A DNA stretch of 64,000 nt, from NCBI RefSeq assembly GCF_054482525.1, contig NZ_CM137006.1. One strand, 5' to 3'. Numbering within the stretch: the stretch's first letter is position 1; each line of letters begins with the position of its first letter. Below the pieces are notes generated by a model. It was given only the letters and a program-made list of their open reading frames with translations. It did not search any database and had not been told where the DNA came from. The translations under genes and the position numbers were made by a program. Below, one piece after another: positions 48,821 to 49,930 of this stretch.

Positions 48821-49930
48821 AGCAACCTCCGTGAAAATGAATAATAATCCGCACATATTGCATGTACAACATGTCGGGCGGATGAGATAAGCGAGTCGAC
48901 ATCTGGCGTTACCGGGGAATATCAGAAAAATGTCATGGTTATGTGATGATTTAGTCTGGGATTTTACTTCAGAGAAACGGGTGTCTGTTTAGTCAACAAA
49001 ATAATCACAAACGCAACGGATGGGTTCTCGACGTTATTCACGACAGGCTCGTACATTACAGCGAGTAATAAAAAACCTGATATGCAAAGTCAAACCAATA
49101 TTCATAATGTCTTTTTATTCACAACAATAAATAATTCAATAACAATCATTGAAATGAATGATGGTTTGTATAAGGAATGTACGCTACCGCCCAGCCCTGA
49201 TAACATGATCTGCACATTGCCATCTTAACGTCGTTAAACACTGGCTTAATAGTGGATATTTCAAATTAGGAATTTATTAAATTCACCTGATGAATATCAT
49301 AAGCAAATAGCATAGAAAATAATGACAACTCCCCCGAGGGGACCATTTCCAATGCACTGCACCACCACCTGGTGCCCGGATGATCTTGCTTCAGTGGTAA
49401 GAGTACCTGATTCATTGTTCCCAAAATGGTGTTTTCCCCTGCTCCTCCAATAATAATGTGCAGCTCTCACGTGATAATCTATTGATTAGGTTATATTAAG
49501 AATCAATATTTAAAATACATCCATTTTCTTGAGTAAATCAACGTGTTTATTTATCAATTGCTGTTTTAGCTCTGACTCATCAAGCTCTCCATATTTGCAC
49601 TACAGATAATCGCGAATAAATACAGAGAACGCCATTTATCCTTTTAGCATACCTGCAGGATATTTTTATTTGTATTAATATTAATTGCATCTCCAACTCC
49701 GAGCATATCCATCATTAAAATATTTTTAGATTATAGAATGCCTGTGATAACAACTGAAACATCTGCACAATGTGAATAGTTAGTTTCTTTTCAGAGGAAA
49801 TGAAATAGACAAGCTGAATGAAATGGAGAGTGATTAAATTGAATTAAAAAAACATAACATGATTCTAATTAATTACGCCCATCATTGTGGATAAAGTCAC
49901 TGAATAATAAATAATCTTCTGGTATCCCAC

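What the first reader, a model, noticed from the sequence alone, without database searches (positions are those of the whole stretch)
48857..49930. ORF-free, strongly AT-rich 1.1 kb tract upstream of vgrG
No ORF of 60 codons or more occurs on either strand across more than 1 kb between the vgrG start and the decayed yncG. The tract is extremely AT-rich with many A/T runs. This is unusual for enterobacterial chromosome and fits an H-NS-silenced regulatory or leader region for the vgrG-rhs module, or a site encoding small RNAs or small proteins.
Basis: seen in the sequence. Interest (0 to 1): 0.4.

Follow-up and report, generated by a model that had tools for sequence, protein, structure and literature searches.

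The report
Silenced vgrG promoter region plus dead yncH
The AT-rich "empty" kilobase is ordinary: it is the H-NS-bound promoter and leader region of an orphan type VI secretion gene (vgrG2) of E. coli PCN033, joined to a frameshifted copy of the small gene yncH.

Summary
In 48857-49930 no ORF reaches 60 codons, and GC is 35.5% against 50.7% for the window. The tract is not one unit, and it is empty partly because of gene decay.

The window is E. coli PCN033 (100% match). The tract has three parts:
- **yncH pseudogene (49644-49860):** a frameshifted DUF5445 gene, intact at 70 aa in most E. coli.
- **Variable spacer (49326-49643):** includes a 125-bp patch of normal GC content.
- **vgrG upstream module (48821-49325):** a 505-bp AT-rich module also found at about 80% identity upstream of a second orphan vgrG beside cusS.

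The vgrG-proximal 358 bp vary 2.6-4 times less than adjacent DNA. A 181-bp core is at least 99% identical in 3,321 of 3,836 E. coli records.

Published data on the K-12 orthologue place sigma-70 holoenzyme binding, H-NS binding and a weak PhoB peak here. The predicted promoter TTGACT-17-TATTAC and the PhoB motif both match the window exactly. In PCN033 the downstream vgrG2 is transcriptionally silent, while its 99.9% identical cluster copy is expressed. The two copies diverge exactly at the ribosome-binding site.

I found no sRNA and no conserved small ORF. The H-NS-silenced regulatory reading is largely right but not new. Interest is low.

The parts
46713..48820 (-). vgrG2 (PCN033_1587/1588), frameshifted orphan T6SS tip gene. 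This is context: the gene the tract lies upstream of.
   Evidence: RefSeq annotation. Same length and 99.9% identical to cluster vgrG1. Identified as the 'outside-cluster' vgrG2/1588 of PMC6363058.
48821..49178 (-). Conserved promoter and 5' leader core of the orphan vgrG-rhs module (GC 0.37).
   Evidence: 5 of 358 segregating sites against 25 of 465 in the rest of the spacer and 44 of 500 at ansP third codon positions. The 181-bp sub-core 48940-49120 is at least 99% identical in 3,321 of 3,836 records, against 35 of 3,575 for the control 49440-49620.
49065..49093 (-). Sigma-70 promoter candidate TTGACT-17-TATTAC, pointing toward vgrG. Predicted start near 49057, giving a leader of about 235 nt.
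   Evidence: The exact string that PMC3946193 gives as best-match promoter of the RpoD-bound yncH>rhsE spacer. Unique match in the window, with 0 expected. The position is predicted, not mapped. The spacer carries an 8-bp deletion in the cusS paralogue.
48841..48868 (-). Proximal sigma-70-like site TGTACA-16-TATTAT, 21 bp upstream of the vgrG ATG.
   Evidence: Consensus scan, 9 of 12 matches. The scan as a whole found no more sites than shuffles give. This site is deleted in K-12 and not conserved in the cusS paralogue.
48920..48937 (+). Pho-box-like sequence TATCAGAAAAATGTCATG.
   Evidence: Identical to the site reported under a weak PhoB ChIP-seq peak (score 1) at K-12 1527862, which is marked H-NS-bound (PMC10294691). 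Located in the window.
48964..49056 (-). 30-codon ORF (MYEPVVNNVENPSVAFVIILLTKQTPVSLK) starting 9 nt after the -10 hexamer. Probably not a gene.
   Evidence: Listed. Stops after 6 codons in the cusS paralogue. Its start is removed by a 10-bp deletion in the WCHEC040047/FDAARGOS_1279 lineage. No Pfam hit.
49179..49325 (.). Distal part of the 505-bp module shared by orphan vgrG loci. It holds a block (49181-49295) conserved across Escherichia and an ISAs1/ISEc1 insertion site (target duplication TAACATGATC, 49201-49210).
   Evidence: About 80% identity to the cusS-locus vgrG upstream region, ending at 49325. The block is 74-75% identical in ST131, YZ3-11, E. albertii and Escherichia sp. E1V33. 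IS junctions are shown.
49326..49450 (.). Patch of normal GC content (0.53) and unknown origin, with a small hairpin TCCCCCGAGGGGA at 49330-49342.
   Evidence: Composition. Terminator-like hit on the minus strand. No paralogue in E. coli. No fold signal, z = +0.9 and +0.3. A 1-bp indel among strains rules out conserved coding.
49451..49643 (.). Variable AT-rich spacer downstream of yncH (GC 0.31).
   Evidence: The control segment 49440-49620 splits into several haplotype groups: at least 99% identity in 35 records, 95-99% in 1,176, and 90-95% in 2,364.
49644..49860 (-). yncH pseudogene (DUF5445/YncH family, 70 aa when intact).
   Evidence: RefSeq pseudogene at 49644-49834. The intact orthologue matches PF17520 at E = 5.6e-41. 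A +5 bp insertion and a -1 bp deletion give a stop after 8 codons.
49861..49930 (.). Spacer upstream of yncH and downstream of yncG (GC about 0.33), the most variable part of the tract.
   Evidence: 7 of 70 segregating sites and a 5-bp deletion in PCN033.
49931..50420 (-). yncG glutathione S-transferase pseudogene (right-hand boundary).
   Evidence: RefSeq marks it 'frameshifted'. 127-bp and 1-bp deletions relative to strain 142 and K-12.

Best explanation
The tract is a composite of three things with separate histories.

(1) 48821-49325 is the cis-regulatory region of an orphan vgrG-rhs toxin module. It is AT-rich DNA carrying at least one sigma-70 promoter that reads toward vgrG, followed by a leader of roughly 235 nt. 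H-NS coats it, so vgrG2-rhs is silent under ordinary growth and is presumably released only under particular conditions.

(2) 49326-49643 is locus-specific spacer with no detectable function.

(3) 49644-49930 is the small gene yncH, killed in this strain by two frameshifts, together with its upstream spacer.

Shown: composition, absence of ORFs, the yncH decay, the sharing of the module between two vgrG loci, the reduced variation of the vgrG-proximal core, and sequence identity with the published K-12 promoter and PhoB motifs.

Taken from the literature: RpoD and H-NS binding to the K-12 orthologue, and silence of vgrG2 in PCN033.

Inferred: that H-NS causes the silence in PCN033, where transcription starts, and that the reduced variation reflects selection on regulatory function.
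For: Strain and annotation:
- The window is PCN033, and the annotation places the yncH and yncG pseudogenes here.
- The intact YncH orthologue belongs to DUF5445.
- The 823-bp spacer is annotated 'none' in 3,542 genomes, and the curated MG1655 record has nothing between yncH and rhsE.

Shared module:
- The 505-bp module is shared with the cusS-locus vgrG.
- vgrG1 (behind hcp, expressed) and vgrG2 (silent) are 99.9% identical and diverge exactly at GGAGGTTGCTATG. The expression difference therefore maps to the upstream DNA.

Published binding data:
- RpoD holoenzyme and H-NS genomic SELEX marks lie on the yncH>rhsE spacer, with promoter TTGACT-17-TATTAC (PMC3946193). That string is present exactly once in the window.
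- An in vivo H-NS-bound mark and a PhoB motif are reported at the orthologous K-12 position (PMC10294691).

Conservation:
- The core is conserved relative to its flanks.
- TpA steps occur at 0.085 against 0.047 for the window.
Against: - No H-NS or transcription-start data exist for PCN033 itself. H-NS binding is inferred from K-12.
- The published promoter position is a best-match prediction within a bound spacer. Its spacing is destroyed by an 8-bp deletion in the cusS paralogue.
- Promoter-like sites are not enriched over shuffles: 5 found against 7.1 +/- 2.5 expected.
- The H-NS nucleation motif TCGATAAATT is not enriched beyond what composition predicts: 4 found against 2.6 +/- 1.5.
- The low diversity of the core could partly reflect recombination history. 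vgrG2 itself was overwritten by gene conversion from vgrG1, so it is not a clean neutral reference.
- Without PCN033-private changes the contrast falls to about 2.6-fold.
- At the cusS locus both the leader and its control spacer are near-invariant, so that test was uninformative.
Confidence: 0.72

Rival explanations
1. The invariant core (about 48940-49120) is conserved because it encodes a product of its own. That would be either the 30-aa ORF at 49056..48964, translated from a leaderless or near-leaderless mRNA, or a cis-acting RNA leader or small RNA. On this view it is not conserved as a promoter or operator.
For: The core is 100% identical across phylogroups A, B1, D and E in most genomes. 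The ORF's ATG lies 9 nt after the predicted -10 hexamer, and the peptide has a hydrophobic stretch.
Against: - The ORF stops after 6 codons in the cusS paralogue.
- Its start codon is deleted in a lineage that probably corresponds to the 103 records in the 90-95% identity band.
- It has no Pfam match.
- No Rfam hit at E <= 1.
- Fold z-scores are -0.01, +0.02 and +1.0.
- The Stringer 2021 small-ORF supplement holds no coordinate in this interval, which is weak negative evidence.
- Nothing is annotated here in the curated MG1655 record.
Confidence: 0.08
2. The whole tract is functionless debris at the edge of a recombination-prone island: xenogeneic AT-rich DNA plus pseudogenes. H-NS and RNA polymerase bind it only because of its composition. 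The low diversity of the left part reflects a recent recombinational spread rather than selection.
For: - The locus is hypervariable among strains, with ISAs1 insertions, deletions in ST131, and alternative PAAR/vgrG islands.
- yncH, yncG and vgrG are all pseudogenes in PCN033.
- vgrG2 shows gene conversion.
- The H-NS motif and promoter-like sites are not enriched beyond composition.
- PhoB sites in H-NS regions are reported to be transcriptionally inert.
Against: - The core lies between two much more diverse flanks, so hitch-hiking with a sweep is unlikely.
- It is as conserved as, or more conserved than, the functional yncG-ansP promoter spacer: 1.4% against 3.4% segregating sites.
- The module is retained upstream of two different orphan vgrG genes.
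- K-12 rhsE, which is driven by this region, is reported to be induced by several chemical stresses. This is a secondary citation in the preprint 10.1101/2024.07.17.603846.
Confidence: 0.15
3. The region is a phosphate-starvation (PhoB) controlled promoter for vgrG-rhs.
For: A PhoB ChIP-seq peak with a Pho-box-like motif lies at the orthologous K-12 position. The motif is identical in the window at 48920-48937, 100-117 bp upstream of the vgrG ATG.
Against: - The ChIP score is the lowest class (1), and expression was not determined.
- The authors conclude that PhoB sites in H-NS-bound regions are inert and arise from shared AT preference.
- The direct repeats lie on the strand pointing away from vgrG.
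- The WCHEC040047 lineage carries a substitution inside the motif.
Confidence: 0.05

Closest known systems
H-NS-silenced promoter regions of horizontally acquired T6SS genes (e.g. Salmonella SPI-6 T6SS; EHEC EDL933 T6SS, which is active only in an hns mutant)
   Same: AT-rich DNA upstream of T6SS genes. The orthologue is reported as H-NS-bound. The downstream gene is silent in laboratory culture. The island is variable among strains. EHEC T6SS derepression in an hns mutant is cited in PMC7216683.
   Different: Here the silenced unit is an orphan vgrG-rhs pair outside the main cluster. Derepression in an hns mutant has not been shown for it. In PCN033 the vgrG is in any case frameshifted.
E. 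coli K-12 yncH-rhsE intergenic spacer (NC_000913.3 1527153-1527889)
   Same: It is the direct orthologue: window 48888-49643 is 95-99% identical. It is the source of the RpoD, H-NS and PhoB binding data.
   Different: K-12 has lost vgrG, the last 67 bp of the leader (including the proximal promoter-like site and the ribosome-binding site) and the 5' part of rhsE. In K-12 the leader abuts a truncated rhsE pseudogene. K-12 yncH is intact.
YncH / DUF5445 (PF17520) small-protein family
   Same: Window 49644-49860 is the orthologue of yncH. The intact gene scores E = 5.6e-41 against PF17520.
   Different: The PCN033 copy has two frameshifts and cannot make the protein. The function of the family is unknown.
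Upstream region of the orphan vgrG-DcrB-rhs island beside cusS
   Same: It shares the 505-bp module at about 80% identity, including the ribosome-binding site and the distal conserved block.
   Different: It has 8-bp deletions in both candidate promoters and 4-bp and 1-bp indels elsewhere. The two vgrG genes are only about 73% identical at third codon positions.

Membership tests
H-NS-silenced xenogeneic regulatory region | AT content well above the genome average | tested here: met
   GC is 0.355 (tract) and 0.364 (module) against 0.507 for the window, which is the lowest 5% of windows. TpA steps are 0.085 against 0.047.
H-NS-silenced xenogeneic regulatory region | Physical H-NS occupancy (ChIP or in vitro binding) | not testable with these tools
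   Published for the K-12 orthologue only: the genomic SELEX 'HNS' mark (PMC3946193) and the ChIP-seq 'x' mark (PMC10294691). The nucleation motif is not enriched beyond composition.
H-NS-silenced xenogeneic regulatory region | Downstream gene silent in wild type and derepressed in an hns mutant | not testable with these tools
   Silence of vgrG2 in PCN033 is published (PMC6363058). Derepression in an hns mutant has not been reported for this locus in the papers found.
H-NS-silenced xenogeneic regulatory region | Association with horizontally acquired, strain-variable DNA | tested here: met
   The locus carries different vgrG, PAAR or IS contents, or none, in different strains. The module was found only in Escherichia among GTDB species representatives.
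Sigma-70 promoter | -35 and -10 hexamers with 16-18 bp spacing, oriented toward the gene | tested here: met
   TTGACT-17-TATTAC at 49093..49065 on the minus strand and TGTACA-16-TATTAT at 48868..48841 on the minus strand. Overall, such sites are no more frequent than in shuffles.
Sigma-70 promoter | Holoenzyme binding and a mapped transcription start | not testable with these tools
   RpoD holoenzyme binding to the K-12 spacer is published. No start-site data could be retrieved, because the Cappable-seq supplement is truncated.
YncH / DUF5445 protein-coding gene | Significant match to PF17520 | tested here: met
   The intact orthologue from strain 142 scores E = 5.6e-41, 138.6 bits against a cut-off of 25.
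YncH / DUF5445 protein-coding gene | Intact reading frame in this window | tested here: not met
   Stop after 8 codons, caused by +5 bp and -1 bp indels. RefSeq marks it a frameshifted pseudogene.
Small regulatory RNA or structured RNA leader | Match to a known RNA family | tested here: not met
   Rfam 15 returned no match at E <= 1 over 47000-52000. ARAGORN found nothing.
Small regulatory RNA or structured RNA leader | Folding more stable than shuffles, or covariation | tested here: not met
   z-scores range from -0.01 to +1.02 for five segment and strand combinations. Consensus folds of the conserved block give -8.9 and -3.7 kcal/mol with negligible covariation.
Pho regulon promoter | Pho box bound by PhoB | tested here: met
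   The sequence is identical to the published bound site. Binding itself is published for K-12 only, with ChIP score 1.
Pho regulon promoter | PhoB-dependent expression | not testable with these tools
   The published table lists expression as not determined. The authors regard such sites as inert.

The most novel reading that the evidence does not exclude
The near-invariant 180-360 bp next to vgrG (48821-49178) could be a dedicated regulatory platform that couples orphan vgrG-rhs toxin modules to a specific signal or to the activity of the main T6SS. It is unchanged across thousands of E. coli genomes from several phylogroups while both flanks diverge, and it is retained upstream of two different orphan vgrG genes. 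It could act through an unidentified DNA-binding regulator, or through a leaderless 30-codon upstream ORF or leader whose translation gates vgrG expression.
Probability: 0.1. Interest if true: 0.5.

Novelty: already known. Interest (0 to 1): 0.2.

Why it matters
Mostly it closes the question. The "empty" kilobase is explained by known things: a pseudogene and an H-NS-bound promoter region already catalogued in K-12 genome-wide data sets.

It has modest practical value for people working on PCN033 and on E. coli T6SS. It offers a concrete explanation of why vgrG2 is silent although it is functionally interchangeable with vgrG1. The two copies differ only upstream of the ribosome-binding site, where vgrG2 has this AT-rich module instead of the hcp-vgrG spacer.

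It also delimits a 358-bp conserved segment that would be the natural target for promoter-swap or hns-deletion experiments aimed at awakening orphan vgrG-rhs toxin modules.

Tried and rejected
- **Known RNA families:** Rfam at E <= 1 and ARAGORN over the region returned nothing.
- **RNA folding:** I folded the GC-normal patch, the predicted 5' leader and the invariant core on both strands. No z-score was below -0.01.
- **Conserved block 49181-49295:** RNAalifold on five diverged copies, both strands, gave weak energies and no real covariation.
- **Small ORFs:** Pfam on the nine largest small ORFs of the tract gave no hits. Comparison with the cusS paralogue shows that frame-breaking indels interrupt all of them.
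- **H-NS nucleation motif and promoter density:** neither was enriched over composition-matched expectation.
- **Cross-genus search:** a 21-base conserved pattern against 100,044 species representatives found only E. albertii, Escherichia sp. E1V33 and one Legionella hit. I consider the Legionella hit chance, because about 0.4 matches are expected and there is no flanking similarity.
- **Conservation test on the cusS paralogue:** uninformative, because the leader and the control were equally invariant.
- **Transcription-start and small-ORF data sets:**
  - The Thomason 2015 and Wang 1998 papers are not held.
  - No supplements are held for the H-NS ChIP-seq paper (PMC3064808) or the bioRxiv small-protein profiling preprint 10.1101/511675.
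  - The Cappable-seq table is cut before 1.5 Mb.
  - The Stringer 2021 table has no entry in the interval.
- **tRNA-fragment idea:** I considered that 'TGGTGCCCGGA' in the patch might be a tRNA 3' end, and rejected it.

Full report
**Origin and annotation.** A megablast of 48700-50100 against complete E. coli genomes gives a 100% match to the chromosome of porcine ExPEC strain PCN033, NZ_CP006632.1. RefSeq annotates four features here:
- a frameshifted vgrG at window 46713-48820 (minus strand);
- a frameshifted 'DUF5445 family protein' at 49644-49834 (minus strand);
- a frameshifted glutathione S-transferase, yncG, at 49931-50420 (minus strand);
- ansP at 50687-52186.

In most other strains the same neighbourhood reads vgrG, yncH, yncG, ansP with intact genes. 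In K-12, vgrG and the 5' part of rhsE are deleted.

**Checking the observation.**
- No start-to-stop ORF of 60 codons or more lies inside 48857-49930. The longest is 57 aa.
- GC is 0.355 against 0.507 for the window, which is the lowest 5% of equal-sized windows. Two other stretches of the window are as low.
- Runs of 8 or more A/T are about five times as frequent as in the window.
- The description is therefore correct, but the left boundary should be 48821. The ATG at 48820 has a GGAGG ribosome-binding site, and homology with PCN033's second vgrG starts exactly there.
- Part of the emptiness is decay. Aligned with strain 142 and a K-12-like strain, PCN033 has a +5 bp insertion and a -1 bp deletion in yncH, giving a stop after eight codons. 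It also has a 127-bp deletion in yncG. Intact YncH (70 aa) matches Pfam DUF5445 at E = 5.6e-41.

**Anatomy of the remaining 823 bp (48821-49643).** This spacer is annotated 'none' in all 3,542 genomes that carry at least 80% of it. The curated MG1655 record also has nothing between yncH and rhsE.
- **Shared module.** The first 505 bp (48821-49325) recur at about 80% identity upstream of a different orphan vgrG (vgrG-DcrB-rhs) beside cusS. Similarity stops at 49325. The left half of the tract therefore travels with orphan vgrG genes.
- **Distal conserved block.** Its distal part, 49181-49295, is also recognisable at 74-75% identity in strains and species where the island differs or is absent: ST131, YZ3-11, E. 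albertii and Escherichia sp. E1V33. It contains a repeatedly used ISAs1/ISEc1 insertion site.
- **Locus-specific remainder.** 49326-49643 has no paralogue. It includes a 125-bp patch of normal GC (0.53) with a small hairpin.
- **No sign of RNA or coding function.** There are no Rfam or tRNA matches. Nothing folds better than shuffles. There is no covariation. No small ORF survives comparison with the paralogue or has a Pfam match.

**Conservation.** I aligned eight strains across the region.

| Segment | Segregating sites |
|---|---|
| vgrG-proximal core, 48821-49178 | 5 of 358 |
| 49179-49325 | 9 of 147 |
| 49326-49643 | 16 of 318 |
| yncH | 14 of 217 |
| yncG-ansP promoter spacer | 9 of 266 |
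| ansP third codon positions | 44 of 500 |

- Fisher p is 0.007 for the core against the rest of the spacer and 9e-7 against ansP third positions.
- No substitution occurs between 48940 and 49120.
- Across all complete genomes, that 181-bp segment is at least 99% identical to PCN033 in 3,321 of 3,836 records. An equally AT-rich control 300 bp away (49440-49620) is at least 99% identical in only 35 of 3,575 records and splits into several haplotype classes.

Three caveats apply:
- PCN033's vgrG2 has been overwritten by gene conversion from vgrG1 (2 differences in 2,108 nt), so it is not a clean neutral reference.
- Without PCN033-private changes the contrast falls to about 2.6-fold.
- The same test at the cusS locus was uninformative.

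One lineage (WCHEC040047, FDAARGOS_1279, B19429) carries a 10-bp and a 1-bp deletion in the core. B19429 matches the core at 93.9%, so this lineage probably accounts for the 103 records in the 90-95% identity band. The deletions remove the start of a 30-codon ORF but leave both promoter hexamers.

**Published evidence on function.**
- **Sigma-70 and H-NS in vitro.** Shimada et al. 2014 (PMC3946193) list the K-12 yncH>rhsE spacer among those bound by RpoD holoenzyme in genomic SELEX. They mark it as containing an H-NS site and give TTGACT-17-TATTAC as the best-match promoter. That exact string occurs once in the window, at 49093..49065 on the minus strand pointing at vgrG, inside the invariant core.
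- **H-NS and PhoB in vivo.** Fitzgerald et al. 2023 (PMC10294691) report a weak PhoB ChIP-seq peak at K-12 1527862. The position is flagged as H-NS-bound in vivo, with motif TATCAGAAAAATGTCATG. The motif is identical at window 48920-48937. The coordinate mapping (K-12 = 1576792 minus window) puts it under the peak centre.
- **Silence in PCN033.** Zong et al. 2019 (PMC6363058) found that vgrG2/1588, the pair outside the T6SS cluster, is not transcribed under their conditions. The near-identical vgrG1, behind hcp in the cluster, is transcribed, and vgrG2 complements in trans. I confirmed that the window's vgrG is that outside copy. I also confirmed that the two copies become unrelated immediately upstream of GGAGGTTGCTATG. 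The expression difference therefore maps to this tract.
- **Induction in K-12.** A preprint cites induction of K-12 rhsE by several chemical stresses, which fits a conditionally active promoter.

**Interpretation.** The best-supported reading (confidence 0.72) is a composite:
- a conserved, H-NS-bound sigma-70 promoter and leader region of an orphan vgrG-rhs module;
- a functionless variable spacer;
- a dead yncH with its upstream spacer.

H-NS as the cause of silence in PCN033, the transcription start site and selection as the cause of low diversity are all inferences. The rivals are less likely:
- a small protein or RNA encoded in the invariant core (0.08);
- pure debris whose conservation comes from recombination (0.15);
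- a PhoB-controlled promoter (0.05).

**Verdict.** Its favoured interpretation is largely right for the left third to half of the tract. The orthologous K-12 spacer is already recorded in genome-wide RpoD, H-NS and PhoB binding data sets. The feature is ordinary and I score interest at 0.2. The one mildly unusual point is the near-invariance of the vgrG-proximal core across thousands of genomes.

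Noticed in passing
window 49195-49210 (target duplication TAACATGATC at 49201-49210); L004 3715-5000; L009 2725-4000: ISAs1-family elements (ISEc1/H-repeat) have inserted at the same point of the conserved block in unrelated strains (JNE112863, ST131). An IS-end remnant abuts the same sequence in SCU-122. In ST131 everything to the vgrG side is gone. This looks like a preferred insertion site, or a recombination boundary, of the island.
   Followed up: partly
window 49181-49295; L007 4320-4470; L008 4001-4114; L010 7075-7177; L012 5871-5984: A block of about 115 bp is conserved across Escherichia species and across different island configurations. Its invariant strings are ACGTTAAGAT, ATGTGCAGAT and ATCAGGG (read on the minus strand, in the vgrG direction), and it contains the palindrome GAATTTAATAAATTC. 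It shows no RNA-structure signal, and its role is unknown.
   Followed up: partly
window 46713-48820 versus L013 33131-35238 (PCN033 T6SS cluster): vgrG2 and vgrG1 of PCN033 differ at 2 of 2,108 positions and share the same frameshift. Each differs by about 5% at third codon positions from the orthologous vgrG of strain 142. This indicates recent gene conversion, with one boundary exactly at the ribosome-binding site.
   Followed up: partly
L013 25390-27183 (PCN033 chromosome 260390-262183): In the RefSeq annotation of PCN033's main T6SS cluster, tssG is split by an IS200C insertion and vgrG1 is marked frameshifted. The published work nonetheless describes the system as functional.
   Followed up: no
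window 48887/48888: This is the K-12 deletion junction. K-12-type strains lose vgrG, the last 67 bp of the leader and the 5' part of rhsE, which fuses the conserved leader directly to a truncated rhsE.
   Followed up: yes
window 49051-49060 and 49070: A 10-bp and a 1-bp deletion lie inside the otherwise invariant core in the WCHEC040047/FDAARGOS_1279/B19429 lineage. B19429 scores 93.9%, so this lineage probably accounts for the 103 records in the 90-95% identity band. The deletions sit between the predicted -10 hexamer and the start of the 30-codon ORF.
   Followed up: partly
window about 26000-29500 and 40000-42500: Two other strongly AT-rich stretches (GC 0.28-0.40) occur in the window. The second lies just beyond the 3' end of the GC-rich rhs core (43-46.5 kb, GC 0.61-0.67), where C-terminal toxin and immunity genes would be expected. 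Neither was examined.
   Followed up: no
K-12 yncH (orthologue of window 49644-49860): yncH and ydcD are listed as 'essential only by TraDIS' in PMC5821084, meaning they received few transposon insertions. That is what one would expect of DNA coated by H-NS rather than of true essentiality. This is my inference; the paper does not discuss it.
   Followed up: partly
L011 7910-7932 (Legionella fairfieldensis contig): A single exact match to the 21-base search pattern, with no flanking similarity to the window. It is most likely a chance hit.
   Followed up: partly
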